Assembly (NCBI GenBank): GCA_965262715.1
Contig: OZ253553.1
Coordinates: 2,784,001-2,848,000, forward strand
DNA length: 64,000 nucleotides
From: Bdellovibrionales bacterium
GTDB lineage: Bacteria > Bdellovibrionota > Bdellovibrionia > Bdellovibrionales > JAUICD01
Direction of reading: 5' to 3'
In this document: piece after piece, positions 22,135 through 59,534 of the stretch
How the letters are laid out: every line of letters begins with the position of its first letter
Position numbering within the stretch: position 1 is the stretch's first letter
The notes under the pieces: generated by a model
Database searches by the model: none
What the model saw: the letters and a program-made list of their open reading frames with translations, nothing else
Told to the model about the DNA's origin: nothing
Position numbers and translations under genes: made by a program

Positions 22135-22158
22135 GTAAAGTCTATTTAGGAAATTTTT

Positions 22159-24529: not shown

Positions 24530-24538
24530 GGAGGATTT

Positions 24539-34761: not shown

Positions 34762-34807
34762 GTTATAAATAGGCCTGAAACTTATTGTTAATTATTAATG
34801 AATAAAA

Positions 34808-34958
34808 AAGTTTTCCTTAACATTGTATAAAAAAATGAAAAGATCCTCCTTACTAAAAATAAACATACTTTTGAGGCAGTCAGCATTTTCTTGAAGGTGC
34901 AAACCTTCAGGCTGACTGCCCAAAAGTGATCAGAGATCAGTTTATTTTTAGTGAAACA
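34808..34958 (+). ncRNA. Structured stem-loop element, copy E1
   Basis: Nested stems CTAAAAATAAAC/GTTTATTTTTAG, GGCAGTCAGC/GCTGACTGCC, TGAAGGT-GCAA-ACCTTCA. Confidence 0.75.
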
Positions 34959-35174
34959 ATGCCTTCTGATTTACAATCCGTTTTTGGCTGGTCAGAGCGA
35001 TTAAAAGAGACTTTTGGTGCTGATAGTTTCAATTTTGGGCTAAATGTGGTAGATTTAAATCAGATATCTGATGAGGATATTAAAGATAAAGCTGGCGATA
35101 TAGCAAGTTTTTGTTTTGCATTCAAACATGTTTGGAATATGACACAAGCTAAGATCAGATCTGTGTTATTTTAA
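34956..35174 (+). pseudogene. Family-2 Rpn internal fragment
   Basis: Matches 36608-36820; aligns with the WNLPLSF...KKAFG region of family 1. Confidence 0.75.
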
Positions 35175-35347
35175 TTAACTCTGTCATGTCAGATAAATTC
35201 TATCAAGTTTTAACAGCCCTTGCTAATTTTCTGCCGATAGTTTCTATGTTCATAAACTATACTCTTTCCAAAAAGCTTATGCTAACTAGCAAGTAGTTAC
35301 ACAACTTAAATTATAGGAACTTATTGGAGTAGTATTAAATTAAAAAA

Positions 35348-35686
35348 TTAGGATGGCCAATGAATTATCTTTCCTTGAGTTGGAGAAATTGGATTGTCTT
35401 GCCAATGCTTAAGAAATTTTTCTACGTATCTTTTTCCTTTATATTGAGGAATTGTAATCAATACAATGGCCATACTAGAAAACTTCGTCATTTCTTTATG
35501 TGCGGATTTAGCAAAGAGGGTGTCTCTTGTAAGAATACAAGTAAAATCTGCATGACTTGCAGTAGATAAGAGTTCACCATTTTGCAATTCATTCCAACCT
35601 TGTTCATATGCCGTTTTGCATTCAATGCCCATTGATTTTAATGAGGAAACTAACTGTTGAGGAAGGTTATGATCAAGCAGCCACAT
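35348..35686 (-). CDS. DUF5615 PIN-like toxin
   Basis: MWLLDHNLP, GW..LQNGELL, ILTRD. Confidence 0.85.
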   Translation of the reverse strand: MWLLDHNLPQQLVSSLKSMGIECKTAYEQGWNELQNGELLSTASHADFTCILTRDTLFAKSAHKEMTKFSSMAIVLITIPQYKGKRYVEKFLKHWQDNPISPTQGKIIHWPS

Positions 35687-35909
35687 GATTTGCAGCAAAC
35701 TTTAGAAGTTCTGGTACACTTTCTTTAGGAAAGCCAGGGTAATCTTCAGAAATTTCTTCAGATGTCATTCCGATAGAAAGACATTCTAAAACTTGAGAAA
35801 CAGATATTCTAGTTCCTTTGACTGTTGGTTTACCACCAAGTAAGTCAGGATGGCAAACAACCCATTTGTATTCTGGATATGTTTTTATTAATTGTGTATT
35901 TTGGTCCAT
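35673..35909 (-). CDS. DUF433 antitoxin
   Basis: LLGGKPTVKGTRISV, EEISEDYP. Confidence 0.9.
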   Translation of the reverse strand: MDQNTQLIKTYPEYKWVVCHPDLLGGKPTVKGTRISVSQVLECLSIGMTSEEISEDYPGFPKESVPELLKFAANHVAA

Positions 35910-36147
35910 AGTTTATTCCATTTAGCTTTATTCATTACTTATAAGAGTACTAAAAAAAATGTGCTTTGTCAAAACCTAAAAACAATCAGAGACTTGTTTC
36001 GAGAGGGGGGGTTGTTTTTAGCCAAGCAATCTTTAAAAGAACAAGCTTTCATGTCCGGACTTTAAGCTTGACTGTCCAACTCTTAAGATAAAGTTTCTGT
36101 TAAATTTCCTTAAACTCTCTTAGAACCAACTTTTAATCAGTATAAAG

Positions 36148-36164
36148 TTGGCATTGCTTTTGCT
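36148..36164 (+). promoter_or_regulatory. Sigma-54 promoter of the second family-2 Rpn module
   Basis: TTGGCATTGCTTTTGCT; 36034-36361 duplicates 34630-34958. Confidence 0.75.
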
Positions 36165-36210
36165 ATTATAAATAGGCCTGAAACTTATTGTTAATTATTA
36201 ATGAATAAAA

Positions 36211-36361
36211 AAGATTTCCTTAACATTGTATAAAAAAATGAAAAGATCCTCCTTACTAAAAATAAACATACTTTTGAGGCAGTCAGCATTTTCTTGAAGG
36301 TGCAAACCTTCAGGCTGACTGCCCAAAAGTGATCAGAGATCAGTTTATTTTTAGGGAAACA
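36211..36361 (+). ncRNA. Structured stem-loop element, copy E2
   Basis: Near-identical to E1. Confidence 0.75.
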
Positions 36362-36444
36362 ACTAAATTAGCCTTTAAAAATAAAGATCGTTTTAGAAAG
36401 CTTTTAAAATTTGTATTAGGTTCTAAAAAGTAGAAAACTTAAAA

Positions 36445-36610
36445 AAGATTTCCTTAACATTGTATAAAAAAATGAAGAGATCCTCTTTACTAAAAATAAA
36501 CGGATTTTCTAGGCAATGACCTATTTGCTGATGGCGTAAGACCATCAGGGTCATTGCCAGAAAACTGCCAGAGGCTCGCCTCGAGAGGCAGGTTTACTTT
36601 TAGTGAAACA
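36445..36610 (+). ncRNA. Structured stem-loop element, copy E3 (variant with extra GAGGCTCGCCTC hairpin)
   Basis: GGCAATGACC/GGTCATTGCC and CTGATGG/CCATCAG stems. Confidence 0.75.
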
Positions 36611-37156
36611 ATATCCTCTGATTTACAATCCGCTTTTGGTTGGTCAGAGCGATTAAAAGAGATTTTTGGTGCTGATAGTTTCAATTTTGGGCTAAATGTG
36701 GTAGATTTAAATCAGATATCCGATGAGGATATTAAAGATAAAGCTGGCGATATAGCAAGTTTTTGTTTTGCATTCAAACATGTTTGGAATATGACACAAG
36801 CTAAGATCAGATCTGTGTTTGAGATGTGTTATCAAGATGGTAAGGATCCAAACTATCATGAGAATGCTGATATTTTAGGTAGATATATGCTTCAAGCTAC
36901 AAATTACCGAAGAGAGGAATTTGTAAAGATTGAAAATGAAGTTATTAAAGGTAAGGAGGATCAAATGATGAAAAGTACTTACGATCAATTGATTGATGAA
37001 GGGATGGAGAAAGGAATAGAAAAAGGGATGGAGAAAGGAATAGAGAAAGAGAAGGCAGAAGTAGCTTTGCGAATGTTAGAGCAAAATATGGAATTGCAAC
37101 TTATAGCCCAAACAACAAATCTTTCAATCCAACAACTTCAAAAACTTAGAAAGTGA
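36608..37156 (+). pseudogene. Family-2 Rpn C-terminal half; internal small ORF 36965-37156 intact
   Basis: (EKGM/I)n repeat, IAQTTNLS; SD AAGGAGG before ATGATG. Confidence 0.8.
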
Positions 37157-37169
37157 TTTTTTAAGATAC

Positions 37170-37605
37170 AGGCGATATAGCAAGTTTTTGTTTTGCATTC
37201 AAACATGTTTGGAATATGACACAAGCTAAGATCAGATCTGTGTTTGAGATGTGTTATAAAGATGGTAAGGATCCAAACTATCACGAGAATGCTAGTATTT
37301 TAGGAAGATATATGCTTCAAGCTACAAATTACCCAAGAGAGGAATTTGTAAAGATTGAAAATGAAGTTATTAAAAGTAAGGAGGATCAAATGATGAAAAG
37401 TACTTACGATCGATTGATTGATGAAGGGATAGAAAAAGGAATGGAGAAAGGAATAGAAAAAGGAATGGAGAAAGGGATAGAAAAAGGAATAGAAAAAGGG
37501 AAAACAGAAGTAGCTTTGCGAATGTTAGAGCAAAATATGGAATTGCAACTTATAGCCCAAACAACAAACCTTTCAATCCAACAACTTCAAAGACTTAGAA
37601 AGTGA
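37170..37605 (+). pseudogene. Tandem duplicate of the family-2 Rpn C-terminus; internal small ORF 37390-37605
   Basis: Duplicates ~36745-37160 with more EKG repeats. Confidence 0.8.
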
Positions 37606-37638
37606 TTTTTATAGAGTTTAGAGTGCAAGTGGTCTCAA

Positions 37639-37914
37639 GATGGTCGAGCAAGTGAGATAATAGACAAACTTACCCATAACTCCAACTATGTATCTATATT
37701 TATTACACATTTTCTTAACATTCCAGCAGAAAATTCTGGAGTTCTATGGAAACTTTATATCGATCTTAAGCTTTCAACTCGTGATATTGAGAAACTCACT
37801 CAATTTTCATGGTCAAAAGCCTCTATTTTAGAGGCTTTAAAAAAGCACAAAATCAAAAAAAATGTTTATACATCTACTTTTAAAAAAGGAAGAAAAAATG
37901 GAAACACTCATTAA
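37639..37914 (+). CDS. Start-less 91-codon open frame with an HTH-like segment, beginning at the att core
   Basis: DGRASEIIDK...VLWKLYIDLKLSTRDIEKLTQFSWSKASILEALKKHKI. Confidence 0.5.
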   Translation, partial: DGRASEIIDKLTHNSNYVSIFITHFLNIPAENSGVLWKLYIDLKLSTRDIEKLTQFSWSKASILEALKKHKIKKNVYTSTFKKGRKNGNTH

Positions 37915-38015
37915 AATCATTATAGCAATATCATTGCTGCTTGGATCAGGTTATTGTGCTAAAGAGATTTTATTCAATGTTGAAAAATTAACCACGGAGA
38001 GGTGAGGTGTACCCT

Positions 38016-38798
38016 TTATTTGGAGGATCCGTTCCATATTTTACTCACTTCTGAGATTCCCATTGTTGTTAATTCTCCTGTTTTCCATTTAGCTTCAAAT
38101 TCATTAGGTGATAAGTAACCTAATGAAGAATGTCGCCTTTTTTTATTATACATACCTTCGATAAACTTTGGAATACTTCTTAATACATCTTCAAAAGTTT
38201 TATACTCACACAGATGAACTTCTTCTCTTTTTAAAGAGCTAAAGAAAGATTCAACAAATGCATTATCCCAACAATTGGCTTTTCTCGACATGCTGATCTT
38301 AAAGCCTTTTTCTTTAAGCTTGTGGGTATAATCCTTACTGGTGTATTGGACACCTTGATCACTATGATGAATACATCCTTTAGCATTTGATCTCTGCTCT
38401 AAACTCATCTCTAAAGCTCCTAAACAAAGCTCTATGTTGATCTCTCTAGAAATAGCCCACCCTACAATCTTCCTTGAAAAAATATCTAAAATCACTGCTA
38501 AAAAAACAAAACCATCTTGAATCCTAATGTATGTGATATCTGTTACCCAAAGCTGGTTGGGTCTATTCACTTCAATGCCAAAAGTTAAATTCGGATAAAC
38601 TCGATTTGAATGTTTAGAATCCGTGGTTGAAACCTTAAAACCTTTGTAAATCAAAGCCTTTAAACCGTATTTCCGCATAATGCGAGCAATCCTCTTGTGG
38701 TTGGCTTTAATACTCTTCTCTTGCTCAAGTTCCAATTGAATACGACGTATTCCATACATCGGGTATTTACACTGTATCCTCTCAATCTGCTCTTTCAA
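38016..38798 (-). CDS. IS3 transposase OrfB (DDE)
   Basis: WVTDITY, HSDQGVQY, DNAFVESFF; frame is open upstream to the AAAAAAG motif at 38963-38969. Confidence 0.95.
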   Translation of the reverse strand: MKEQIERIQCKYPMYGIRRIQLELEQEKSIKANHKRIARIMRKYGLKALIYKGFKVSTTDSKHSNRVYPNLTFGIEVNRPNQLWVTDITYIRIQDGFVFLAVILDIFSRKIVGWAISREINIELCLGALEMSLEQRSNAKGCIHHSDQGVQYTSKDYTHKLKEKGFKISMSRKANCWDNAFVESFFSSLKREEVHLCEYKTFEDVLRSIPKFIEGMYNKKRRHSSLGYLSPNEFEAKWKTGELTTMGISEVSKIWNGSSK

Positions 38799-38869
38799 AT
38801 CAAAATCCTTTTGCTCTCGCTCTTGCTGCGAAAACTTCTTCTTGTAATAGTAGCTGCTTAAAGGTAATC

Positions 38870-39220
38870 CTAACGCTTTACACGTTTTTGAAATTGATCC
38901 AAATTCTTTCCAGTGATTACCGACGATCTCACGCTTTTCCTCTGCTGAAGCTCCTTTTTGGCCTTTTTTAAAAACTCGTTCTCTAGGCTCAGCTGTCCTA
39001 CCTTTGCCTGAAGAGCATATGCTTGTCTCTCTAGAGACCTCTCCCTTGATGAAGGGTTTCCCAAAGGTGTCCCTTGTTGATACTTCTTAAACCACTCTAA
39101 GATTGTCTGGCGATGAAGTTGATGCTCCCGGCAAATCTCTAACAAAGATCTGCCTTCATGCATCGATTTACAAATAGCTTCCTTAAATTCAACATTAAAT
39201 CGTCTTCTTACTTTGCCCAT
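38870..39220 (-). CDS. IS3 transposase OrfA
   Basis: RRRFNVEFK HTH; A-AAA-AAG -1 slippery site. Confidence 0.9.
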   Translation of the reverse strand: MGKVRRRFNVEFKEAICKSMHEGRSLLEICREHQLHRQTILEWFKKYQQGTPLGNPSSRERSLERQAYALQAKVGQLSLENEFLKKAKKELQQRKSVRSSVITGKNLDQFQKRVKR

Positions 39221-39319
39221 GATCTTCCTCCTGATCTTATAGCTTTTTATAGCTAAAATTCAGGAATCTCAAGTGAGTTACTTTATCACTTAACTCTCCA
39301 GTTTATGGGGTACAGACCA

Positions 39320-39928
39320 CAAACGTTTAAAACTCTTTCTGAAAGTTATCAAAGAAGAATTGAGAAACTCAAATTAGAAAACGAAAAGCTAGCCCATCTC
39401 ATAGCTAAAAATCCTTTAGCTGAGAAATTAGATAGTTTACTTTCTAAGATTAAAGATAATGAAGATCATCTCTCTCAATTAGAAGCTAAAAAGCAAGAAT
39501 TAGAAATAGGTTTACTCAACAAGATTACAAGTAAGAATATAGATTCTAACTTTATCTTGTCTGGTATTAAAAAGTTTCGCCAAGATAGTTTTCGTAAAGC
39601 CAAAGTTTCCAAGAAACGATCTATCATTCAAGAAGTTATCAAAGCTATTCATGTTCATCCAGAAAATGTCATTCAAGTTGATTTTTGGGGAAATGAACAC
39701 CAATCTAGAACCTCTAGAAAAAATTCCTTTCAGCCGGGAGTTGTATTACCTTTTCGTAAAATCGCAGGGCCTCTTGAAGCATCTTTCCATCAAAACAACT
39801 ATAAAAAAGATCGGTTTTCAGATATAAAAAAGGCTGCTGGACTTGGAACTTATGCCTTATGCCATAACGAAAATTTAATGGCCTTAGGTTCGTCCAATAT
39901 CAGAGATGGTCGGCACGACTGGATTTGA
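39320..39928 (+). pseudogene. C-terminal part of a probable large serine recombinase, truncated by IS3
   Basis: Coiled coil followed by KRSIIQEVIKAIHV...IQVDFW; reads antisense into the tRNA 3' end. Confidence 0.55.
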
Positions 39929-40093
39929 ACCAGCAAATCTCTTCCTCAAAATGGTCTCGCAAGCGACTTTCTGATTGTTAGCCAAGTGGGTTTTTATACA
40001 CCCTCTTTAAAAAGCTAACAATCTAGAAAGCATGACCATTTTGAGTATTTTATTATCATACGGATGTACGCTACCAAGCTGCGCCACGTGCCG
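39907..40093 (-). tRNA. tRNA-Pro-like gene (187 nt) with the anticodon region replaced by a ~110-nt hairpin element
   Basis: Acceptor CGGCACG/CGTGCCG-ACCA, D arm GCGC-AGCTTGGTA-GCGT, T arm GCTGG-TTCAAAT-CCAGT; no normal anticodon loop. Confidence 0.8.
39945..40059 (-). ncRNA. Structured stem-loop element, divergent copy E8 inside the tRNA
   Basis: CTCAAAATGGTC/GACCATTTTGAG, CTTTCT/AGAAAG, GATTGTTAGC/GCTAACAATC and side hairpin TCGC-TT-GCGA; same layout as E1-E7. Confidence 0.7.
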
Positions 40094-40101
40094 ATAACAT
40101 T

Positions 40102-41580
40102 CTAATCTTTTGATGTGTCTTTTACTCTCTGAGACTTATTATTAACTATTCTATCTATTTTAATAACTTGTTTTGCTCTTGCTATAGCTAAACTATTTGG
40201 AGGAACATCGTCTGTAATAGTAGATCCACTGCCTATAACAGATCCTTTACCTACCTTTATTGGAGCTATAAGTTGTACATCGCTACCTACAAAAACATTA
40301 TCTTCTATAAGAGTTTTATATTTTTTATGATCTTCCCGGTAATTGCAAGTGATTGTTCCGCAACCTATATTAACATTTGATCCTATTTCAACGTCACCTA
40401 AATAACTCAAATGAGAAGCTTTCACATGATCTGCAAAAATAGCTTTTTTTGTTTCTACAAAATTGCCTACTTTACAATGGTTTCCAATATGAGTTTCAGG
40501 TCGCAATCTAGCATAAGGACCAATCAAACTATGAGATTCAACAATAGCATTTTCCAAATAACTTCCTGCTTTGATTTTGACATAACAACCTATCTTAGAA
40601 TCACGAATAATAGAATTAGGCTCAACCTCACAGCCTTCAGCTATTTGGGAACCTCCTAAGATATAAGTGTTTGGATAAATAGTAGCTGTTGGCTTGATAT
40701 CAACATCATCTTCAATATAAGTACTTTCAGGATCAATAATCACCACACCCCTATCCATAAGTTGCATGGCCTTTTTATAAAACACTTTTTTTGTAGTTAC
40801 TGCAAGCTCTTGTTGCGATTCAATTGGATAAGAAATATCTTCGTTCAAAGAGAGATAAGAGGCTTTTTCTGGATTTTTTTGCAAAAACTTAAAAAATATA
40901 CCCGCTAAATAGCTTGTTAAATCATCTGCTTTATATGAATGAGATAGTGAAAATATATTATTAACAATTGTTTTTTTAAAGATATAAATATTCGATCTGA
41001 GCTTTTTAGAAAAACTGCTAAGCTTGTCACTCTTCGCTGCTTCTTCAATCTGATGCTTTAAGCCTGAGTTTTGAGTAGGTGCGGCTATTGTTAAATCCTT
41101 AGCAGACTTCTGAAAGCTTTTTATGATAGATATCAAATCATTGGTTTGTAGAAGAAAACTATCTGCACTCACAAATAAAATGATTTGACTATCACATTTG
41201 GTCGTTAATTCTGACTTTATGCTATCTACTACATTTTTTAAATGACTTTGTTGAGTATAAGAAACAAGGTATGATGATAAAGACTCTTTTATTTGTGAAT
41301 ATGTATCTTTTGTAGTGACAACATTTATATCTAAGTCAGTAGGTAGCTCCTGTTGGTCTGACAATCCTCTTAAAGCTTTGACAACCCTCAGGATCATTGG
41401 AATACCTGCAACAGGATGCATGTATTTTGAAAGAGGAGAATGCATGTTAGTATCCTGATCAAATGCTAATATAAATGCGGTAAGCTTTGTTTTTGAAAAA
41501 GAATTTGATGTTTTCATTGTGATTTTCCATCTATTTTTGGGTTTGTGCTTGTTTGTTGTATGGTAATCTATTATTTTCAT
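40102..41580 (-). CDS. glmU: GlmU-like protein (acetyltransferase domain intact, uridyltransferase domain divergent)
   Basis: IGPYARLRP, VGNFVETKK, SHLSYLGD, NIGCGTITCNY, hexapeptide repeats; start uncertain. Confidence 0.85.
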   Translation of the reverse strand: MKIIDYHTTNKHKPKNRWKITMKTSNSFSKTKLTAFILAFDQDTNMHSPLSKYMHPVAGIPMILRVVKALRGLSDQQELPTDLDINVVTTKDTYSQIKESLSSYLVSYTQQSHLKNVVDSIKSELTTKCDSQIILFVSADSFLLQTNDLISIIKSFQKSAKDLTIAAPTQNSGLKHQIEEAAKSDKLSSFSKKLRSNIYIFKKTIVNNIFSLSHSYKADDLTSYLAGIFFKFLQKNPEKASYLSLNEDISYPIESQQELAVTTKKVFYKKAMQLMDRGVVIIDPESTYIEDDVDIKPTATIYPNTYILGGSQIAEGCEVEPNSIIRDSKIGCYVKIKAGSYLENAIVESHSLIGPYARLRPETHIGNHCKVGNFVETKKAIFADHVKASHLSYLGDVEIGSNVNIGCGTITCNYREDHKKYKTLIEDNVFVGSDVQLIAPIKVGKGSVIGSGSTITDDVPPNSLAIARAKQVIKIDRIVNNKSQRVKDTSKD

Positions 41581-41671
41581 AAAGGAAATGTATTTTTGAA
41601 AACTCTTTTAAATAAGACAAACTTTAGAATAAACAGTCAATTTTTATAGATTTTTACTATGGGGGTTCTAC

Positions 41672-43513: not shown

Positions 43514-43630
43514 AGTCCAAATCTTAAAGCGTCTAATCTTCTGTAAATTGACAAGAAAAGCAAAACGCTTTTACTCTGATTTAAGCCTCATAATTTTCTT
43601 AAATATATTTTAGGCTAGGAGATAAGCTAG

Positions 43631-44713: not shown

Positions 44714-44915
44714 AATATATTTTTAGGTTCATAACTAGTTAGGAAAAAACATATTCATCTTATGCCATATTAAAAGGAAAGACTTATGAGAAAATCAATT
44801 AAAAAACTCACCTTGCTACCTTTATTGATCATGCTAGTTGGATGTTCAGAAAGCTTGAGAAAATATGCAACTTTTAAAGAAAGAGGATCACAAACTCAAA
44901 CATTTGTAGACAATA

Positions 44916-45220: not shown

Positions 45221-47173
45221 CCTGAGTTTGACAGTTGCGAAAATAAAGTTGAGTTATTTTAGTTAGTTACAGTGGATGTGTGATTTTGTACCACTACATT
45301 TTGATTTTGTGGTAGAGATTTAAGAGATTGTTTGTAGGTTTAAGTAGATTCAATTTTAAGTTGTTTTGATGGGATCTTAACTCCTATAGCTTTAAATACA
45401 TCAGCGTTATTGCCATAAATATCTGTTCTTATCCAAATAGTTTTGTTTTTATATCTGACAGGTATAGCTCGTACTTCTTTCAGCTTTGACATAGCTTCCG
45501 CTACACTCAATGGCCTTGACTTTATTCTCTTGTCTGTGATCGCTTTATCTTTTAATGTGATGTTTCTTTGATGTAACTTCTTTGCAAAATAAGCCTCACA
45601 TAAGTAAGATAAAAAACACACAACTAAATGACCTAATATCCTCTTATCTGTCCAGTGGAACATAGGACGTGTCTTTAATGTACCCTTCAACTCTCTAAAT
45701 GAATTCTCTACCTTCCATAATTGCTTATAGTTCATTATAATCTCTTCAGAGCTTAAATCTGTGTTTGTAATTATTCCAAAAAAACCATCTGTCCTCTCTG
45801 ATTGTTCTATAGCTGACTTATTTAAAGTAGGCTTGCCTTTACTCTTAGGATGAACAATATACTTCTTATAATTACTATTAGATAAAAAAGATCTTGTGCT
45901 TATGGACTTCTTTGATAATTGAGCTTCTATCTTAGATAGAATATCTTCTCTTACTTTCTTATCTCGTTCTGCTCTCTTTCTCGACCAGGTAATTATACAA
46001 CGATCATTATTATAGCTTGTCTCGTATATAGCTAAATCTTCATTTATAAATTTAAAATTCTTTAAATTGTATATCTCTGCATGACGATCCTTTAATAAAC
46101 CTAGCTTTAATCCTACTATAAATTCATCTCCCTTTGCTTTTAATGATTGGAGATTCTCATTAGAAAATAAACCTCTATCTCCTACTAATATAAATCTTCT
46201 GATCTTAAACTTCTTTTTTAGCTTCGTCATAACTGAAGGTATTGTTTTACCTTCAAATGTATTCCCAGGATAAACATCAAAGCCTAAGGGCATACCTTCT
46301 GTATCTACTAAAAGTCCAAATACCACTTGTGTGCAATCACTCCTCTTCTCTTTGCTATAACCAAACCTTCGAAGATTATCTAAATCCTCACGGGTACTCT
46401 CAAATCTCAATGTCGTTAAATCATACAAAATAACATCACACTCATTGAAAAAACTTAATTGAGACTTACCTCGCATATAAAGAGTCTTCTCTATATCTTC
46501 TTTATGCTTACTTAGAATATCTAAAGAACGATAAATGTCTTGAAGATGAAGCTCCCCTTCTAAAAAATCAGGATAAAATAACTTCTGCCAGTGTGAAAAT
46601 ACTTTAAGCTTAGAACAAGGCTCTACAAAACGACTTATAACCAATGTAAAAATAATCTTAACAAAATCAAATTGCACTTTACGATGCTTCTGTTTTAAAT
46701 CTGTTAATAATCTATAGAGATTTAATTGTTTAAAAATAGTATCTATTATAAGCAAAGGACCTAAAATAAAAGTGTCTTTTACATCAATCTCTTTTAATAA
46801 CTTACTAGCAGGAATTATCTCTAACTCTTTAGATAATACTTCTAGAAGCTTCTTCAAGTTAACTTCCTTATCCGCGGCTTTACCTAAAGACATTAGAATC
46901 CTTTGCTTCACTTGAGAACCTAATCTGTAGCTCTCAACAAGATGATAATATATGTCTCCTCTCGGATTTCTTGTAGACCTTATGAACATAAAAATACATT
47001 ACAAGAAAAATATAAAAAATAAAAGAAAATAAGGTATATGACGCGTAGTGTATGATAAATAAGTACACTACACTTTTTGACCAAAATACAAACACAATAA
47101 CCGCTAATGACTATAAATACAACATTCCTTGAAAAAAATATCACGAAAATTCAAATTAAGTGTCAAACTCAGG
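45221..47173 (-). mobile_element. IS1634-family element
   Basis: IRs CCTGAGTTTGAC/GTCAAACTCAGG. Confidence 0.95.
45340..46989 (-). CDS. IS1634-family transposase
   Basis: YDLTTLRFE, GYSKEKRSD, VGDRG, LWKVENSFRELK, RPMFHW. Confidence 0.95.
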   Translation of the reverse strand: MFIRSTRNPRGDIYYHLVESYRLGSQVKQRILMSLGKAADKEVNLKKLLEVLSKELEIIPASKLLKEIDVKDTFILGPLLIIDTIFKQLNLYRLLTDLKQKHRKVQFDFVKIIFTLVISRFVEPCSKLKVFSHWQKLFYPDFLEGELHLQDIYRSLDILSKHKEDIEKTLYMRGKSQLSFFNECDVILYDLTTLRFESTREDLDNLRRFGYSKEKRSDCTQVVFGLLVDTEGMPLGFDVYPGNTFEGKTIPSVMTKLKKKFKIRRFILVGDRGLFSNENLQSLKAKGDEFIVGLKLGLLKDRHAEIYNLKNFKFINEDLAIYETSYNNDRCIITWSRKRAERDKKVREDILSKIEAQLSKKSISTRSFLSNSNYKKYIVHPKSKGKPTLNKSAIEQSERTDGFFGIITNTDLSSEEIIMNYKQLWKVENSFRELKGTLKTRPMFHWTDKRILGHLVVCFLSYLCEAYFAKKLHQRNITLKDKAITDKRIKSRPLSVAEAMSKLKEVRAIPVRYKNKTIWIRTDIYGNNADVFKAIGVKIPSKQLKIEST

Positions 47174-49637: not shown

Positions 49638-49794
49638 TGAAAAGATGGCAATGCCAGAAGCCTTTTTTTGCAAAACTAAAGATATAATTTTAATAAGAGA
49701 AGGTACATATCAATAACGAAGATGAGGAGATACAAGTTTATCACATAACCTTTTTTTGGAAAATTAAAGATACAGTTTAAACGAGGAGGTACGT

Positions 49795-50736: not shown

Positions 50737-50789
50737 GTTATTGGGTGTTTTTTTCAAAAAAGTTATTTATATTTAATAAGGAGGTCCCA

Positions 50790-51539: not shown

Positions 51540-51566
51540 ATGTCATAAAAGGTCATATAACGAACA

Positions 51567-52664
51567 ATGAAACCGACTATTTTGTGTGTTGATGATGAGA
51601 TTGACAATGTTGAAGTCTTAGAAAGGACTTTCCGCACATCTTATCATGTTATGACGGCTACTTCTGGTTTGGAGGCTCTTAAGTTATTAGAGCAAAAAGA
51701 AGTGGCTGTTATTATTAGTGACCAAAGAATGCCTCAAATGACAGGGGTGGAGTTTTTTCAGAAGTCTATTTCTTCACATCCTGACACCATACGTATATTA
51801 TTGACGGGCTATAGCGACATAAGCTCTGTTATTGATGCTATTAATACCGGTCAGGTTTATCGGTATATCACAAAGCCTTGGGACATCCATGATTTAAAGT
51901 CTACTGTTGCAAGGGCTGTAGAACGTTACTCTATGCACAAGGAACTTCAGCAAAAGACAGAAGACCTTAAAAAAGCATATGAAGATCTTAAAAGCTTAGA
52001 TCAAACTAAGTCTCATTTTATGTTATTGATTCATCACGAGTTGAGGACTCCGTTAACAATTATTTCCAACTTTTTAGAGTTGCTGGCACAATCTGGTTTA
52101 GGTGCGGATCAGGCTCTTTATTGTCAAAAGATCCAATCTGGAGCAGATCGTTTGAATGAGCTGATTTTCTCTGTTTTAGAGATTATGGAAGCTGAGACGG
52201 GGCGATTAAAACCTGTTAAAGGCTCTATTCATCTAAAACCTATTATAGAAGACCTTCTCTCAGAACTTCAGAGTTTTGCAAAGGATAGAAAGCAAGCTTT
52301 TGACCTCCAAATTTCAGAAGATTTTGTGTGTGCAGATCAAAAAATTATAAAAAAGGTACTTAAAAAGTTATTTCAAAATGCTATTAAATTTTCAGAACCT
52401 GATAGGACGATCTCTATTCGAGCTGCTCATAAGGAAGATCAAGATATAGAGGTTTCTATAACAAATACTGGTCCAACTCTTTCTGAAGAGACTATTAGGA
52501 GTATTTTAAAGCCGTTCACACTTAATGAAGACAGCATGAAGCATAGCAAGGGGCTTGGGCTTGGGCTTAGTCTTTGTCAATCTTTATTAAAGTGTCATGG
52601 CTCCAAATTACAGATTATCAGTCAGAACAACACTATAAAAGTTAGCTTTGTTCTTAAAAAATGA
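51567..52664 (+). CDS. Hybrid response regulator-histidine kinase
   Basis: VDDE, SDQRMP, TKPW, HELRTPL, NAIKF, GLGLGL. Confidence 0.95.
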   Translation: MKPTILCVDDEIDNVEVLERTFRTSYHVMTATSGLEALKLLEQKEVAVIISDQRMPQMTGVEFFQKSISSHPDTIRILLTGYSDISSVIDAINTGQVYRYITKPWDIHDLKSTVARAVERYSMHKELQQKTEDLKKAYEDLKSLDQTKSHFMLLIHHELRTPLTIISNFLELLAQSGLGADQALYCQKIQSGADRLNELIFSVLEIMEAETGRLKPVKGSIHLKPIIEDLLSELQSFAKDRKQAFDLQISEDFVCADQKIIKKVLKKLFQNAIKFSEPDRTISIRAAHKEDQDIEVSITNTGPTLSEETIRSILKPFTLNEDSMKHSKGLGLGLSLCQSLLKCHGSKLQIISQNNTIKVSFVLKK

Positions 52665-52802
52665 ATTTCAATCAATAGAATGATTGTCAGGACGTGATAT
52701 TCTCATTATAATAATAAAAATGCTTTACAAACACTAAAATTTAAATTTATATTCTTATAATTTTTTATGTGTAAAAAAGTTGAGGAAGAGGGAAAATAAT
52801 TT

Positions 52803-53135
52803 ATGGCAACTCAAAGTGTTCAAAGTCAAAAAATTCATATTCGTCTTAAGGCATTTGATTACAGACTACTTGATCAATCAACAAAGGAGATCATAGAAAC
52901 TGTTCGGAGGACAGGCGTAAAAGTTGCGGGACCTATACCACTTCCTACTAGAATTAATCGCTATACTGTTTTAACATCGCCGCATGTAGATAAAAAATCA
53001 CGTGAACAATTTGAAATTCGCACTCACAAGCGAGTTTTAGATATTTTAGACCCAACACAGCAAACTGTTGATCAGTTGATGAAGTTAGACCTTTCGGCGG
53101 GAGTAGATGTAGAGATCAAGTTATCGGTAGTTTAG
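52803..53135 (+). CDS. rpsJ: 30S ribosomal protein S10
   Basis: [20 protein letters not shown]. Confidence 0.98.
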
Positions 53136-53242
53136 ATAAAGAAGTGATTTGATAAGACTTTATAGTAGCTTAGAAAACTTGATGGACGTTTTTTTCAAAT
53201 AATGGGAATATAAATTTTCAATTAGAGGTTAGGGATAATATA

Positions 53243-54322
53243 ATGGCAAATGACAATCAGAAAGACAATAATTCGAAGACACCTTCTTTAGAGGATTCTC
53301 AAGGAAGCCATGTATCTGCAGGTTCTTCTACCAAAGATTCTGTACTAGAGGATAAGCAAACGGAGTCAGTTGAATCATCAAGTTTAGAGACCAGTTCGGA
53401 AAATGAGGTGAAGAAAGATGATCTAATAGAGCCAAAAGCTTCAACAGAGGGTTTGCAGGCTCAAGCAGATAGTCCTGATCAAGTAGCAGAGTCTTCTTCT
53501 CAAACTTCAGATCAAGTTGCCAAAACACAGGAGCAAACTGAGGCTGAAAGTTCAGATTTAATGGATGAGGGAGCTACTATATCTGAAGCAGAGGAGATTA
53601 TAGAAGAGACATTACCAGAGCTTTACTTAAATGGTTTCTATGCTATCAAGTTAGGCATGTCTTCTATTTACAATGATCAAGGGCAAATTGTTCCTGTGAC
53701 AGTTTTAAGATTTGATACTTGGAAGGTCACACAGATAAAAACAAAAGACAGAGATGGATATGTTGCTATTCAATTAGGATCGGGTCCAAAGTCTGAGAAA
53801 AAGTCGAATCTTCCTCAAAAAGGTCATTTAAAGCCTTCTGGGTTTCCAACTAATGTGACTTTTTTACGTGAGATTAGGGGAGAAGTTCCACATCAACCTT
53901 CCAAAGACAGTGAGAAGGAGGCTAGCGCAACTTCTCAAGATACTAAAGATGGCAAGTCTATCAATTGCCAGTTAGGTCAAGTTTTATCCATTCATAGCTT
54001 AGCAAAAGGTGATCGTGTACATCTTTCATCTATTTCAAAAGGACGTGGTTTTGCAGGCACAATAAAACGTTTAGGTTATAGCGGAGGCCCTGCTTCACAT
54101 GGGTCTCAATTTCACAGAAAGCCAGGTTCTATAGGAATGTGTGAAGAACCTGCACGCGTGCTTCCTGGAAAGGGCATGCCAGGTCATCATGGAAATCGGA
54201 ATGTGACTTTAAAGCATGTGGAAATCGTGGATGTGATTTCAGCAAAAAAGGTTTTATTAGTTAAAGGCAGTGTTCCTGGTGGGCGCAACAGCCTTGTTAA
54301 GTTAATGAAAGAGAGTGTCTAA
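53243..54322 (+). CDS. rplC: 50S ribosomal protein L3 with long acidic N-terminal extension
   Basis: KLGMS, DGYVAIQLG, SKGRGFAG, GSVPG. Confidence 0.95.
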   Translation: MANDNQKDNNSKTPSLEDSQGSHVSAGSSTKDSVLEDKQTESVESSSLETSSENEVKKDDLIEPKASTEGLQAQADSPDQVAESSSQTSDQVAKTQEQTEAESSDLMDEGATISEAEEIIEETLPELYLNGFYAIKLGMSSIYNDQGQIVPVTVLRFDTWKVTQIKTKDRDGYVAIQLGSGPKSEKKSNLPQKGHLKPSGFPTNVTFLREIRGEVPHQPSKDSEKEASATSQDTKDGKSINCQLGQVLSIHSLAKGDRVHLSSISKGRGFAGTIKRLGYSGGPASHGSQFHRKPGSIGMCEEPARVLPGKGMPGHHGNRNVTLKHVEIVDVISAKKVLLVKGSVPGGRNSLVKLMKESV

Positions 54323-54325
54323 ATC

Positions 54326-55057
54326 ATGCCTCAGATAGATGTATTACATTGGAACCGTCAAAAGATGAAAAGCATAGAGCTTCCTGATATTGTATTTGCA
54401 GGACCTATTAAAAAATATATTTTACACGAGGTTGTGAAATGGCAACTTGCTAAAAAACGTCAAGGAACTCACAAAGTAAAAACTCGTGGCGAAGTCTCTG
54501 GAGGAGGTAAAAAGCCTTTAAAACAAAAAGGTTCAGGGCGTGCGCGTCAAGGTTCTATACGCTCTCCTTTGATGAAGGGAGGAGGGGTGATATTTGGTCC
54601 TTCTCCAAGGAGTTACAATTACGCTCTTGGTAAAAAGGTTAAGAGAGCGGGTCTGCGATCAGCACTTTCTTATCTTTTTAAGGAAAAGCGTTTCTATGTT
54701 GTACCAGAGATGACATCTGAAGATGGAAAGGCAAAAGATCTTTTAAAAAAATTACAAGGTTTTGGTGTTTCCAAAGCAGTGTTGATTGACAATTTAGAAG
54801 TACCGCTTTTTAAAAGAGCAGCTAGAAACTTACCTTATTTCAGGTATTATTCTACAGAGGGTTTGAATGTATATGATCTTTTAAAATATGATACGGCTAT
54901 TGTTACAGAAGGTGCATTAAGTGGTATTATTGCAAGATGCGCGCCGCCTCATCATGAGGATGGACAAACTAATGAAGATGAAATGAGTCACCACGATGGA
55001 AACCACCACGATGAGAACCATCAAGACGGCAACCATCAAGATAAGCGGAGTGATTAA
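54326..55057 (+). CDS. rplD: 50S ribosomal protein L4 with His/Asp-rich tail
   Basis: RQGTH, QKGSGRARQGS. Confidence 0.97.
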   Translation: MPQIDVLHWNRQKMKSIELPDIVFAGPIKKYILHEVVKWQLAKKRQGTHKVKTRGEVSGGGKKPLKQKGSGRARQGSIRSPLMKGGGVIFGPSPRSYNYALGKKVKRAGLRSALSYLFKEKRFYVVPEMTSEDGKAKDLLKKLQGFGVSKAVLIDNLEVPLFKRAARNLPYFRYYSTEGLNVYDLLKYDTAIVTEGALSGIIARCAPPHHEDGQTNEDEMSHHDGNHHDENHQDGNHQDKRSD

Positions 55058-55059
55058 GT

Positions 55060-55353
55060 ATGTACCATATTATAAAAGAGCCTCTCACAACAGAGAAAAA
55101 TGCAAAGCACCAGGCACAAAACACTTATGTTTTTAAGGTAGATAAAACAGCAACTAAGCAACAAATCATGAAAGCTATTGAGCAGTTATTTGAGGTTAAA
55201 GTTATAGGTATTCGGACTCTTATTTCTAGGAGGCGTAGGCATAGGGGACGAGGACGACGTACGGGTAAAAATACGGATAAAATTCATTATTGGAAGAAGG
55301 CTTTTGTAAAACTATCGCCTAATAATAAGATTCGACTTTTTGAAGGAGCTTAA
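55060..55353 (+). CDS. rplW: 50S ribosomal protein L23
   Basis: PLTTEK, WKKAFVKL. Confidence 0.95.
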   Translation: MYHIIKEPLTTEKNAKHQAQNTYVFKVDKTATKQQIMKAIEQLFEVKVIGIRTLISRRRRHRGRGRRTGKNTDKIHYWKKAFVKLSPNNKIRLFEGA

Positions 55354-55378
55354 ATTAATTGTTTAAGGACATAGTACA

Positions 55379-56215
55379 ATGACTCTTAGAAACTACAAAC
55401 CATTCACATCTTCTCGAAGAACTATGACGAAGGCTGATTTTTCTCAAATCACCAAGGCATTTCCGGAAAAATCACTAGTTACAAAGAAAGATCAAAAAGC
55501 AGGCCGTAACAACCAAGGCCGTATCACTGTACGTTTTCGTGGATCTGGTCATAAAAAGCGTTATCGCATTATAGATTTTAAGCGATCTAAAGCAGACATT
55601 CCTGCAACTGTTTCTGCTATTGAATATGATCCAAATCGTTCTGCTTTTATAGCTCTTTTGTATTATAAGGATGGAGCAAAATCTTACATTGTTGCTCCCT
55701 TAAATTTAAAAGTTGGTGATACTGTTTTATCTTCTGAATCAGCGGATATCAAACCTGGTAATAATATGACTTTATCAAAGATCCCATTAGGAACAATGAT
55801 TCACAATATTGAAATCAAGCCAGGTAAAGGAGGACAGCTTGCTTTGTCTGCGGGTTCTTATGGCACATTGGTTGCGAAAGAGGAACGTTATGTTTTAGTG
55901 AAACTTCCTTCAGGAGAGGTCAGGAAGGTGCTTACTGTTTGTAGAGCTTCTATAGGTCAGGTGGGTAATATAGAAAATGAAAATATTAAGATAGGTAAAG
56001 CAGGTCGAACACGTTGGCTTGGTTGGCGGCCTCATGTTCGAGGTATGTGTCAAAATCCAATTGACCATCCTATGGGAGGGGGTGAAGGAAAAGGAAAAGG
56101 GAATCATCCTCAGACTCCTTGGGGTAAGCCTTGTAAAGGACATAAAACACGTCATAATAAGAGGGATGCTCACCTTATTGTAACTGCAAGAAAACCAAGA
56201 AAGAAAAAGAAATAA
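55379..56215 (+). CDS. rplB: 50S ribosomal protein L2
   Basis: [25 protein letters not shown]. Confidence 0.98.
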
Positions 56216-56227
56216 TAAGGAGGTTAT

Positions 56228-56509
56228 GTGGGACGTTCTATTAAAAAGGGGCCATTTATTGATGACCATTTATTAAAAAAAATACAAAAAGCTAAGTCTG
56301 AAGGAGATCGTAAGGTCATAAAAACTTGGTCAAGACGTTCGACGGTGATTCCAGATGCTGTGGGCTTGACATTTGCCATTCATAATGGCAAAAAGTTTAT
56401 TCCTGTTTATATAACAGAAAACATGATTGGTCATAAATTGGGAGAATTTGCTCCAACAAGAATTTTTAAGAGTCACTCTGGAGATAAGAAAATGAATGTG
56501 ACTCGATAA
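56228..56509 (+). CDS. rpsS: 30S ribosomal protein S19
   Basis: [18 protein letters not shown]. Confidence 0.98.
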
Positions 56510-56550
56510 GAGCTGGAGTTTAATTTTATTTTAAGAGAGAGGATAAGGTT

Positions 56551-56883
56551 ATGGAAGTGAAAGCTTCTTTAAAATTTGCAAAGATAGGGACACAAAAGAC
56601 TAGGCTTATTGCTAATTTAGTCAGGGGGCAGCATGTAGAAAAGGCATTGAAGCAGTTAGTTTTTTTAAACCGCAAGCCGGCAAAGGTTATAAAAAAACTT
56701 ATCTTATCCACGCTCGCAAATGCCAGGCAAAATAGTTATATTGACATAGACAATTTGTTTATTAAGACAATCACTGTAGATGAGGGGCCTCATTACAAAC
56801 GTCAGATTCCTAGGGCACAGGGACGAGCTGCTTTAATCAGAAAAAAGTCAAGCCATATCGATTTGGTGTTGGTTGAGAGGTAA
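56551..56883 (+). CDS. rplV: 50S ribosomal protein L22
   Basis: VDEGP..KR..PRAQGRA. Confidence 0.97.
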
Positions 56884-56890
56884 AATATTT

Positions 56891-57553
56891 ATGGGTCAAA
56901 AAGTAAATCCAATTGGATTGAGATTAGGTATTAATAGGACATGGGATTCTCGCTGGTACAGTAAGGGACCTAGTTTTGCTAAGAACTTACATGAAGATTT
57001 TAAATTACGCGAATATGTAAAAAAACAATTAAAACACGCTGGGATCTCAAAAATTGAAATTGAACGCATTGCAAGCAAGGTGAAGATTATTATTTTTTCT
57101 GCAAGGCCTGGTGTTGTGATTGGGAAAAAAGGAACAGGTATTGATGCTCTTAAAGCTGATGTGCAGCGTTTGACAAAGGACGAAGTCTTTATCAATATTC
57201 AGGAGATCAGAAAGCCTGATATCGATGCTCATTTAGTCGCTAAGAGTATCGCTATACAGTTAGAAAAACGTGTTTCTTGGCGCAGAGCACTTAAGAAAGC
57301 TTTGAAAGCTGCTGTTTTAGGTGGAGTTAAAGGGATTAAGGTACAAGTTGCAGGCCGACTGGATGGGGCGGAAATTGCAAGAACAGAATGGTACACTGAA
57401 AAAAGTGTACCACTTCACACCTTAAGAGCTCAGATTGACTATGCGACAGCAGAGGCGCTGACAACTTATGGGATCATTGGAGTGAAGGTATGGATTTACA
57501 AGGGGGATGTTATGTCACTTAAGGCATTACGTCAGGAGACACAACGTGCTTAG
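56891..57553 (+). CDS. rpsC: 30S ribosomal protein S3
   Basis: [25 protein letters not shown]. Confidence 0.98.
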
Positions 57554-57959
57554 TCCTAAGAAGATTAAATGGAGAAAGCAATTTCGACCTTACTTAAGTG
57601 GTAAGGCTCATTCAGGGAACAAAGTTTCCTTTGGTGATTTTGGGATGCAGGCTCTTACAGCAGGTAAATTAACCTCTCGTCAAATTGAGGCCAGCCGTAT
57701 TGCTATTAGTCGTTCTGTGAGAAGAGGCGGACGGGTTTGGATCCGTATATTTCCTCATATTCCTGTGACCAAGAAGCCAGCAGAAACGCGTATGGGAAGT
57801 GGTAAAGGGGCTCCAGAGTATTGGATTGCTCATATAAGACCTGGTACAATTCTTTTTGAAATGATTGGAGTGACTGTAGCGCAAGCAAAAAGAGCTTTTG
57901 AATTGGCTGGTCATAAACTACCTATTAAAACAAGATTTTTAGAAAGAGAGTCTTTATGA
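57546..57959 (+). CDS. rplP: 50S ribosomal protein L16
   Basis: GTG start; [13 protein letters not shown]. Confidence 0.97.
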
Positions 57960-58180
57960 AATACAAAAATATAAAAAACTTAGAACAAGAAGAGATTTTT
58001 AAAAAGATAACAGAGTGTTCAAACGAGCTTTTTCACTTAAGAATGACAAAAAAACTAAATCAGGTGACCAATCCTGTAAAGATTAGAACATTGAGGCGGG
58101 ATATTGCTCGTTTGAAAACAGTATTATCTCAAAGAAGGTTATCAAAAGATATAAACTTAGAAGCAATTGCAGGAAATTAA
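57956..58180 (+). CDS. rpmC: 50S ribosomal protein L29
   Basis: [16 protein letters not shown]. Confidence 0.95.
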
Positions 58181-58196
58181 TATTTGGAGATGAAAG

Positions 58197-58739
58197 ATGA
58201 CAGAGAATCAGGATGAAAAGAAAGAACAGAAGACAGATGATGTAGTAGATCAGACGACGTCAGATCAAGATCAGATTAAAGCAGATAGCGTGAAGTCTAA
58301 AGACAACAAAGATAGCGTGGAGTCTAAAGACAACAAAGATGTTGATGATAGCAAATCGCCTGATCAAGCACCTTTAAAAGCTGAGAAGAAAGAGGAACTT
58401 CGAAGACCAAAATTGAAGGCAGATATAAGAGTTCAGCAGGTGGGTCATCGAAGAAAGGTTATTGATACGGATAAAGCGAAGGAGCGTGGACGCAAGATTG
58501 AAGTTATTGGTGATGTGATCAGTGATAAGATGGACAAGACCATCACTGTGCAAATATATAGGAAGGTTCGTCACCCTCGTGTTGGCAAGTACATTAAAAG
58601 GAGTACAAAATTCAAGGCTCATGATGAAAAAAATGTAGCACATATAGGGGACAAGGTTTTAATTCACGCCACCCGCGCCCTTAGTAAGACAAAATATTGG
58701 AAGTTATCGAGGATTATAAAAGCTGGCGAAAGATTATGA
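58197..58739 (+). CDS. rpsQ: 30S ribosomal protein S17 with charged N-terminal extension
   Basis: SDKMDKTITV, KFKAHDE, TRALSKTKYW. Confidence 0.95.
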   Translation: MTENQDEKKEQKTDDVVDQTTSDQDQIKADSVKSKDNKDSVESKDNKDVDDSKSPDQAPLKAEKKEELRRPKLKADIRVQQVGHRRKVIDTDKAKERGRKIEVIGDVISDKMDKTITVQIYRKVRHPRVGKYIKRSTKFKAHDEKNVAHIGDKVLIHATRALSKTKYWKLSRIIKAGERL

Positions 58740-59519
58740 TGTTAAGGATAAGATTTCCTTAACATGAGGTAAAAAAATGAAGAGGGTCTCCCTCCTAAAA
58801 ATAGTCAGGCATTCTAGGCAATCAGCATTTTACTGATGGTGTTAACCATCATGCTGATTGCCAGAAAGTTGCCAGAGGCAAGACTATTTTTAGTGAGACA
58901 GCAGTTATCGAGGATTATAAAAGCTGGCGAAAGATTATGATGTTAAGGATAAGATTTCCTTAACATGAGGTAAAAAAATGAAGAGGGTCTCCCTCCTAAA
59001 AATAGTCAGGCATTCTAGGCAATCAGCATTTTACTGATGGTGTTAACCATCATGCTGATTGCCAGAAAGTTGCCAGAGGCAAGACTATTTTTAGTGAGAC
59101 AGCAGTTATCGAGGATTATAAAAGCTGGCGAAAGATTATAGGTGTTAAGGGTAAGATTTCCTTAACATGATGTTAAAAGATGAGGAGAGTCTTCTTACTA
59201 AAAATGAATGGATTTTTGAGTCAATGAGCATTTTACGAGGGTGTTAGTCGTCGTGCTCATTGACTCAAAAATGGTGAGAGGCTCGCCTCGAGAGGCCAGT
59301 TTATTTTTAGTGAGACAGCAGTTATCGAGGATTATAAAAGCTGGCGAAAGATTATAGGTGTTAAGGGTAAGATTTCCTTAACATGATGTAAAAAGATGAA
59401 GGGAGTCTCCCACCTAAAAATAGTCAGGCTTTCTAGGCAATCAGCATTTTACTGATGGTGTTAACCATCATGCTGATTGCCAGAAAGTTGCCAGAGGCAA
59501 GACTATTTTTAGGGAGACA
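58702..59519 (+). repeat. Four-unit tandem array (rpsQ 3' tail plus structured elements E4-E7)
   Basis: Tail copies start at 58702, 58903, 59104, 59320; elements at 58740-58900, 58941-59101, 59143-59317, 59359-59519. Confidence 0.95.
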
Positions 59520-59534
59520 GAAAGGTAATTTAAG

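What the first reader, a model, noticed from the sequence alone, without database searches (positions are those of the whole stretch)
34808..59519. Dispersed family of covarying ~100-175 nt stem-loop elements, always sense to the host transcript (8 copies)
Seen: copies at 34808, 36211, 36445, 39945 (minus strand), 58740, 58941, 59143 and 59359 share one architecture. It is an A-rich leader (with GATTTCCTTAACAT or a close variant in 7 copies), a 12-bp outer stem, a TTCT/AGAA-type stem with a bulged A, a 10-13 bp stem, a T-rich bulge, an apical stem with a G-started loop (GCAA, GTAA, GTTA) and a small 3' side hairpin. Stem sequences change while pairing is kept: GGCAATCAGC/GCTGATTGCC, GGCAGTCAGC/GCTGACTGCC, GGCAATGACC/GGTCATTGCC, GAGTCAATGAGC/GCTCATTGACTC, GATTGTTAGC/GCTAACAATC. 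Junctions are imprecise: deletions in the Rpn genes and the tRNA, a duplication at rpsQ. There is no ORF and no classical TIR/TSD. Inference: a mobile structured RNA or ssDNA element spread by a non-DDE route (RNA-templated, HUH-type or nuclease-initiated repair). I cannot assign it to a named family.
Basis: partly seen in the sequence, partly recalled or inferred. Interest (0 to 1): 0.92.

Follow-up and report, generated by a model that had tools for sequence, protein, structure and literature searches.

The report
One-ended folded DNA repeat, no transposase
The eight hairpins are copies of a roughly 150-base, gene-free folded repeat present hundreds of times in one bacterial genus, which likely spreads as single-stranded DNA joined to new sites through one reactive end, leaving deletions or long duplications, with a mobilising enzyme that is not yet identified.

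Summary
The three-way-junction fold co-varies strongly (200 compensatory changes at 30 pairs; 0.13 per non-cognate pair). 'Always sense' is refuted: orientation is random except just before gene starts. The ends are unequal. The 3' end is retained, ragged (+5 to +13) and abuts tRNA ends and stop codons. The 5' side carries variable leader. Targets are duplicated (21-82 bp) or deleted (2-298 bp). Extra 3' fragments come from other copies. Loops (cGNNAg, 37% GNYA) and rare G-T pairs look like single-stranded DNA, not RNA. The sister genome has no detectable RT, Y1/RAYT, IS110, IS3/IS30 or TnpB; resident IS ends do not match. Best reading (0.45): a REPIN-like, RAYT-less ssDNA repeat inserted through its 3' end and finished by host repair; enzyme unknown, IS1634 transposase the best named suspect. 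The scan flagged this family before at other places in this genome; the junction polarity and DNA-versus-RNA evidence were tested here.

The parts
34812..34959 (+). Full copy; segmental duplicate of the 36211/36445 locus (body of the first, 3' flank of the second)
36215..36362 (+). Full copy replacing about 92 bp (RBS, start and first 15 codons) of an Rpn gene
36449..36611 (+). Full copy with extended side hairpin, replacing about 298 bp inside the same Rpn gene
39935..40066 (-). Short-type copy without the 5' motif, replacing the anticodon arm of tRNA-Pro(GGG)
39903..40094 (-). Broken tRNA-Pro(GGG) gene around that copy; intact in G001, and no intact Pro(GGG) among the 41 genes called in G000
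58754..58901 (+). Array copy 1 behind the intact rpsQ stop (58737-58739)
58955..59102 (+). Array copy 2, identical to copy 1
59157..59318 (+). Array copy 3 with a different interior and extended side hairpin
59373..59520 (+). Array copy 4, ending about 15 nt before the rplN start
58902..58954 (+). Duplicated upstream flank (3' end of rpsQ plus leader, 52 nt) joined 9 nt after the element's TAG; recurs before copies 3 and 4
59373..59391 (+). 5' sequence motif TTTCCYTAACAT-NN-TGTWAA (example copy): conserved in sequence, not in pairing; inferred protein-binding site
59506..59520 (+). 3' end TTTTKAG-KGAAACA (example copy): 3' arm of the outer stem plus a short single-stranded tail; the inferred reactive end

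Best explanation
It is a non-autonomous, genus-specific selfish repeat whose top strand folds into a conserved three-way junction and which likely moves as single-stranded DNA, joined to new sites through its 3' end by an unidentified enzyme acting in trans. Shown: fold and covariation, unequal ends, a ragged but always retained 3' end, variable 5' leader, targets duplicated or deleted, nested insertion, and fragments drawn from other copies. Inferred: (1) a protein recognises the 5' motif and the fold, and the top strand is cut or trimmed 5-13 nt past the stem; (2) that tail is joined at a nick or break, often through a CAG microhomology; (3) host replication or repair copies the element and some upstream flank and closes the second junction independently, giving a duplication or a deletion; (4) when the target is nearby, the result is a [flank+element]n array or erosion of downstream DNA until an essential tRNA end or stop codon is reached; (5) recombination between copies swaps interiors.
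For: Polarity: in G001, 5'-truncated copies mostly follow an intact 3' end at scattered positions; 154 distinct nested junctions resume at +5 (32) or +8 to +13 (103). 42 paralog empty-site rows (fewer independent events) show 3' junctions mostly at +3 to +13, target duplications up to 82 bp or deletions of 2-298 bp, and 0-59 extra 5' bases. Array junctions fall at +6 to +12. 3' ends lie within 10 nt of a convergent stop in 20 of 94 and 33 of 197 cases, 5' ends in 4 of 94 and 5 of 109. 8 of 39 and 7 of 38 ARAGORN genes are abutted by a 3' end. Trans origin: 22 of 30 and 91 of 100 distinct 3'-tail fragments differ by 2 or more nt from the adjacent copy, and 16 and 76 of those match other copies exactly. 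Strand and chemistry: G-T against A-C 40:18 and 76:40 distinct contexts, G-T only 1.7% and 0.9% of cells; 192 of 513 c-GNNA-g loops in G001 are GNYA; d(cGNNAg) is a stable DNA loop motif (reference title in PMC3201870). Mobility: sites are nearly independent between species (both flanked: 20 upstream and 23 downstream of 1,125 orthologues, about 11 and 18 expected). REPINs show the same arrays and nesting (PMC3116915).
Against: No enzyme was found: Y1, RAYT, Y2, Rep_trans and relaxase are not detected in G001 (the Y2 search rang in no control). No lagging-strand bias (108:76 leading in G000 with genes at 765:609; 51:49 in G001). GNRA loops are still the majority (321 of 513; 95 of 150 in G000). 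Top and bottom strands fold almost equally well. Isolated copies rarely show duplications (5 of 67 against 0 of 132 shuffled; 2 of 59 against 2 of 116). No general hairpin preference at targets. One-step compensatory changes could partly come from arm-to-arm copying rather than selection. No excised or single-stranded form was observed.
Confidence: 0.45

Rival explanations
1. SINE-like route: a processed read-through RNA is copied from its 3' end by target-primed reverse transcription, using an undetected RT or a host polymerase.
For: A 3'-anchored, 5'-variable insert with duplication or deletion is what target-primed copying gives (established knowledge of non-LTR elements). Ragged 3' end just past a stem, top-strand bias and GNRA majority, trans-derived 3' fragments.
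Against: G001 has 1,280 hits but no RT match by PF00078 (0 candidates) or by tblastn with the three G000 RTs. GNYA loops are 37% and G-U only 1-2% of cells. A-runs of 5 or more occur in only 6 of 155 and 52 of 490 junctions. No sense bias away from gene starts. tRNA abutment is matched by stop-codon abutment, so tRNA priming is not needed.
Confidence: 0.2
2. Atypical MITE or one-ended substrate of the resident IS1634-family DDE transposase.
For: IS1634 is in both element-bearing genomes and on G004:C11, and PF01609 finds nothing in G003. 21 of 32 G000 copies with located ends have 38-337 bp direct repeats and 9 have none. Long variable repeats are known for IS1634/IS1549 and unexplained (PMC2266710). 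One subfamily has TAGTGAAACAA, the element's 3' end, inside its left end (p about 0.006 per window, uncorrected).
Against: IS1634 ends (CCTGA...TCAGG) are precise and unlike the element's; the element HMM has no hit on 26 IS1634 ends. The G001 IS1634 carries TAGTGGCACAA instead, the 5' motif similarity is not significant, and about 50 windows were tested. Only 3 of 66 and 5 of 51 IS1634 ends lie within 100 nt of an element.
Confidence: 0.15
3. No dedicated enzyme: the fold stalls replication or is cut by host structure-specific nucleases, and break repair plus gene conversion spread it.
For: No candidate mobiliser in G001 in the family searches. Flanks are kept while interiors are swapped at orthologous sites. 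Imprecise junctions. Insertion at existing breaks has been proposed even for IS elements (PMC11708052 abstract).
Against: Does not explain the nearly invariant, non-pairing 5' motif, the one-sided reactive end, or the restriction to one genus.
Confidence: 0.15
4. Host-maintained RNA element (terminator or stabiliser) spread under selection.
For: Terminator-like patterns on both strands; frequent position at gene ends.
Against: It destroys a tRNA, Rpn genes and a CRISPR repeat. Positions are not conserved and orientation is random.
Confidence: 0.05

Closest known systems
REPINs / REP-BIME mobilised by RAYT (TnpA-REP) (PMC3116915, PMC8266576; passages read)
   Same: Hundreds of intergenic folded copies; tandem arrays that include flanking DNA; insertion into or next to existing copies; ssDNA recognition with bulges; cuts at variable distance from the hairpin.
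   Different: No RAYT in either genome; not a doublet of 20-40 bp palindromes; no GTAG guide; three-way junction with a separate 5' motif; one reactive end; long duplications and deletions.
IS91/ISCR rolling-circle elements (PMC13181058; passages read)
   Same: Two functionally different ends; capture of flank beyond one end; ssDNA intermediate.
   Different: No Y2 transposase found; ragged 3' end; no tetranucleotide target; duplications occur.
IS1634/IS1549 family (PMC2266710; passages read)
   Same: Long variable direct repeats or none; resident in both genomes; a shared TAGTG(AAACAA) word.
   Different: The IS ends are precise TIRs that the element lacks.
Bacterial MITEs: Correia/NEMIS, ERIC, RUP, RPE (PMC2229807; first third read)
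   Same: 100-200 bp, non-coding, stem-loops, occasional insertion into RNA genes.
   Different: No TA ends, no fixed target duplication, TIR only about 8 of 12 and matching no resident IS; essentially never inside intact ORFs.
Non-LTR/SINE target-primed insertion (recalled)
   Same: 3'-anchored, 5'-variable copies with duplication or deletion.
   Different: No RT in G001, no poly(A) tail, DNA-type loops.

Membership tests
Rfam RNA families | match at gathering score | tested here: not met
   0 in the window; E-value scans give 3 sub-threshold hits at 22-27 bits against cut-offs of 70-82
REPIN/RAYT | RAYT gene in the genome, flanked by the repeats | tested here: not met
   NF047646: 0 in G000 and G001; PF01797: one IS200-type TnpA in G000 with no element in its locus, 0 in G001
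REPIN/RAYT | doublet of short palindromes with a GTAG-type guide | tested here: not met
   consensus and fold
REPIN/RAYT | tandem arrays including flank; nested insertion | tested here: met
IS-mobilised MITE | TIRs matching a resident IS | tested here: not met
   ends of IS1634, IS30, IS5-like, IS256, IS3 and IS1595 inspected
IS-mobilised MITE | fixed short target duplication / TA ends | tested here: not met
IS-mobilised MITE | under 200 bp, no ORF, folded | tested here: met
IS1634 derivative | CCTGA...TCAGG termini | tested here: not met
IS1634 derivative | long variable direct repeats; transposase present | tested here: inconclusive
   duplications of 21-82 bp in a minority, deletions common; transposase in both genomes
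IS91/ISCR-type | Y2 transposase | tested here: inconclusive
   0 of 5 genomes, but 0 of 14 controls too
IS91/ISCR-type | precise ori end, tetranucleotide target, no duplication | tested here: not met
IS110/IS1111 | IS110 recombinase in the genome | tested here: not met
   PF02371: 0 in G000 and G001
Retroelement / SINE-like | reverse transcriptase available | tested here: not met
   3 in G000, none in G001 (90% complete)
Retroelement / SINE-like | RNA intermediate | not testable with these tools
   no RNA holder listed
RPE-type coding repeats | in-frame insertion in protein genes | tested here: not met
   0 of 225 and 1 of 365 loci inside ORFs of 150 aa or more

The most novel reading that the evidence does not exclude
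A gene-free replicator that needs no transposase, HUH enzyme or reverse transcriptase: a folded single strand whose free 3' tail is captured at chromosome breaks and copied by host or otherwise uncharacterised enzymes, reaching over a thousand copies and steadily eroding intergenic DNA. That would be a new class of bacterial mobile DNA, or would reveal a new family of mobilising enzyme.
Probability: 0.25. Interest if true: 0.85.

Novelty: new variant of a known kind. Interest (0 to 1): 0.58.

Why it matters
How short bacterial repeats multiply is shown for few families, and usually rests on a linked transposase. This family has 455 and 1,280 hits, abundant nested junctions and no matching enzyme among the families searched, so it gives a natural data set and a compact substrate for finding a missing mobiliser or a repair-only route. 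If IS1634 is responsible, it would also be a handle on that family's unexplained long variable duplications. It visibly reshapes its host: lost tRNA, broken genes, duplicated gene ends.

Tried and rejected
Viral contigs: a strict pattern gave 0; a looser one gave 8 loci, none with an HMM hit, so chance. Metagenome pattern 0; plasmids and phages 0. Rpn as mobiliser: 43 and 57 matches, but 20 in element-free G003. Four-helix-bundle (TIGR02436) cassette: 9 of 9 intact G001 copies have the element downstream, but G004's own contigs carry the cassette with no element in the 20 stretches fetched, so co-targeting. TnpB zinc-finger hit is a Cas12a-like CRISPR protein. Serine recombinase, tyrosine recombinases, GIY-YIG (one each, in a protein of over 600 aa), HNH, DUF559, LigD and IS630: no link. 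tRNA-primed copying: replaced by the general 3'-end rule. Hairpin target preference: none. Replication-strand bias: none beyond gene bias. Sigma-70 promoter in the rpsQ array: 0. dif, integron and parS likenesses (recalled) did not hold on inspection. No RNA holder listed. R-scape was not available; a parsimony test was used instead. Nine literature searches found no description of this family; subscription journals are not covered.
Full report
OBSERVATION. All eight copies are present; seven carry both end motifs and the tRNA copy lacks the 5' one. The five copies folded have z of -6.0 to -10.3 as DNA. An HMM iterated from the seven full copies gives 475 hits, 455 non-overlapping, in 225 loci of the 2.94-Mb genome, and 0 in the reversed genome. 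The sister species G001 has 1,280 hits, 697 full-length. A 5'-half pattern matches 3 of 301 genomes of the order. The third, G004, has it only on three contigs whose fetched stretches are about 85-92% identical and collinear to G000, probably stray contigs in that bin. The host is labelled Bdellovibrionales only through the title of a related record and earlier notes. Rfam has no match at gathering score, and plasmid and phage collections have none.

ANATOMY. From 5' to 3': a purine-rich leader of variable length; TTTCCYTAACAT-NN-TGTWAA; a small purine/pyrimidine hairpin; then a three-way junction (outer stem of about 13-15 bp, a long arm with a bulged A and a T-rich bulge ending in a G-started loop, a 5-bp side hairpin with an AGA loop); then a short tail, KGAAACA. 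On a tree of 158 copies less than 92% alike, 30 cognate pairs show 200 same-branch compensatory changes; 780 non-cognate pairs average 0.13 and reach at most 3. Recombination makes the tree approximate, and arm-to-arm copying could produce some double changes. The 5' motif is conserved as sequence, not as pairing: the central pair is A-A in 68 of 158. I infer a protein-binding site. The two ends form a weak 12-bp inverted repeat, median 8 of 12 in G000 and 7-8 in G001, and TG...CA termini are not conserved.

WHICH STRAND, WHICH POLYMER. G-T exceeds A-C on the top strand (40:18 and 76:40 distinct contexts, p 0.005 and 0.001), so the top strand is the one read. G-T pairs are only 48 of 2,846 and 133 of 14,314 cells. 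In G001, 192 of 513 c-GNNA-g loops are GNYA, which RNA GNRA loops do not favour (recalled) but which fit the stable DNA motif d(cGNNAg) (a reference title seen in PMC3201870). Against this, GNRA is still the majority and both strands fold almost equally. This favours ssDNA without proving it.

ORIENTATION. In co-directional gaps G000 has 74 sense, 47 antisense and 9 mixed loci; G001 has 69, 55 and 67. The excess lies within 100 nt of a gene start (34:8 and 28:7); farther away it is 40:39 and 41:49. The window's eight copies are at most four events, so 'always sense' was a small-sample effect. There is no replication-strand signal beyond gene bias.

JUNCTIONS. Paralogous empty sites (42 rows, several from one event) put the 3' junction mostly at +3 to +13 after the stem's TAG. 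The target is duplicated (up to 82 bp) or deleted (2-298 bp), and 0-59 extra bases precede the 5' motif, often shared with other copies. Arrays are [upstream flank + element]n joined at +6 to +12. Among isolated copies, duplications of 20 nt or more are seen in 5 of 67 against 0 of 132 shuffled pairs in G000, but 2 of 59 against 2 of 116 in G001. In G001, truncated copies are mostly nested insertions: an intact 3' end precedes the remnant at scattered positions, resuming at +5 in 32 and at +8 to +13 in 103 of 154 distinct cases. Short 3' tails of 19-27 nt start at a CAG in the side-hairpin region. They differ from the adjacent copy in 22 of 30 and 91 of 100 cases and are identical in 4 and 3, about the 8-10% of random pairs. 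They therefore involve two different copies, not local slippage. 3' ends abut tRNAs on either side: 5 antisense just after CCA and 3 sense just before the 5' end among 39 genes in G000, 4 and 3 among 38 in G001. They also abut convergent stop codons: within -10 to +30 nt, 29 of 94 and 62 of 197 3' ends against 14 of 94 and 7 of 109 5' ends. I read this as erosion from a reactive 3' end until something essential stops it. Sites are nearly independent between the two species, and at orthologous sites in the closer relative flanks persist while interiors differ.

MOBILISER. G001, with the most copies, shows no match for RT, Y1, RAYT, IS110, rve, IS630, Rep_trans, relaxase or LigD; the Y2 search is uninformative. 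It is 90% complete by markers, so absence is not proven. Gene families expanded in both genomes are Rpn nucleases and four-helix-bundle cassettes, both also found without the element. IS256 and IS1634 are shared; neither has matching ends. IS1634 stays a suspect: 21 of 32 G000 copies have 38-337 bp direct repeats, 2 have 3-4 bp and 9 none; such repeats are known and unexplained (PMC2266710, passages); and one subfamily carries the element's 3' word internally, a weak and uncorrected signal.

MECHANISM AND COMPARISON. Best reading (0.45): top-strand ssDNA with a free 3' tail is joined at a nick or break, then host synthesis copies the element plus some leader and closes the second junction independently. 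Rivals: RNA-templated 0.2, IS1634-driven 0.15, repair only 0.15, host function 0.05. It behaves like a REPIN (arrays with flank and nested insertion, PMC3116915 passages; variable cut distance, PMC8266576 passages) but fails membership. It has IS91-like end asymmetry (PMC13181058 passages) without the precise end or target. It fails the MITE criteria in PMC2229807 (first third read). PMC11708052 was seen as abstract and outline only. No supplements were read.

VERDICT. A real, undescribed (nine searches, listed under Tried and rejected) variant of the bacterial interspersed-repeat kind, with an unusually well documented one-ended insertion signature and no identified enzyme. Interest 0.58.

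Noticed in passing
G000:C1:2589828-2608500; G001:C1:235349-245700: CRISPR locus with a Cas12a-like gene plus a second 1,334/1,325-aa Cas12a-like protein (50% identical between the genomes), cas4 and cas1; element copies truncate the far end of the G000 array. Subtype not tested.
   Followed up: partly
G001, about 14 sites such as C1:960069, 1168381, 1599447, 2428092: Solitary Cas12a-type repeats, several behind a TATACTATAAT promoter-like word, away from the array: possible mini-arrays or regulatory guides.
   Followed up: no
G000 19 and G001 14 matches; L271-L286: Four-helix-bundle (TIGR02436) cassettes with 7-8-nt tandem repeats land just behind stop codons and tRNA ends; in G001 they are usually followed by the element.
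   Followed up: partly
window 45340-46989 and 62140-63786; genome-wide: IS1634-family elements with 38-337 bp direct repeats and a TAGTG word repeated in direct orientation inside both ends; G001 has 51 such ends but only 2-3 long copies.
   Followed up: partly
window 19981-27571 and 14175-15716: Zorya-like cluster (ZorA, ZorD with an HNH match) and a QatA-like ATPase.
   Followed up: no
window 824-1816, 7368-8388, 11213-12277, 34690-37605: Many Rpn genes and fragments, preceded by a sigma-54-like TGGCA-N-TTGC word (motif recalled).
   Followed up: no
window 58197-58739 and 53243-54322: uS17 has a roughly 100-aa N-terminal extension and uL3 is 359 aa.
   Followed up: no
L002:1870-2050; G000 for example C1:337470-337630: A second modular repeat of about 190 bp (GATTTGATATTTTAAGCC...GGCTTAAAACATCAAATC hairpin) is often fused to the element.
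   Followed up: no
G004:C1, C4, C11: The fetched stretches are 85-92% identical and collinear with G000, while G004's large contigs are about 70%: likely stray contigs in that bin.
   Followed up: partly
G001, 94 sites: The element's 3' end is joined head-to-head at the centre of another copy's 5' motif, creating perfect-looking terminal repeats.
   Followed up: partly
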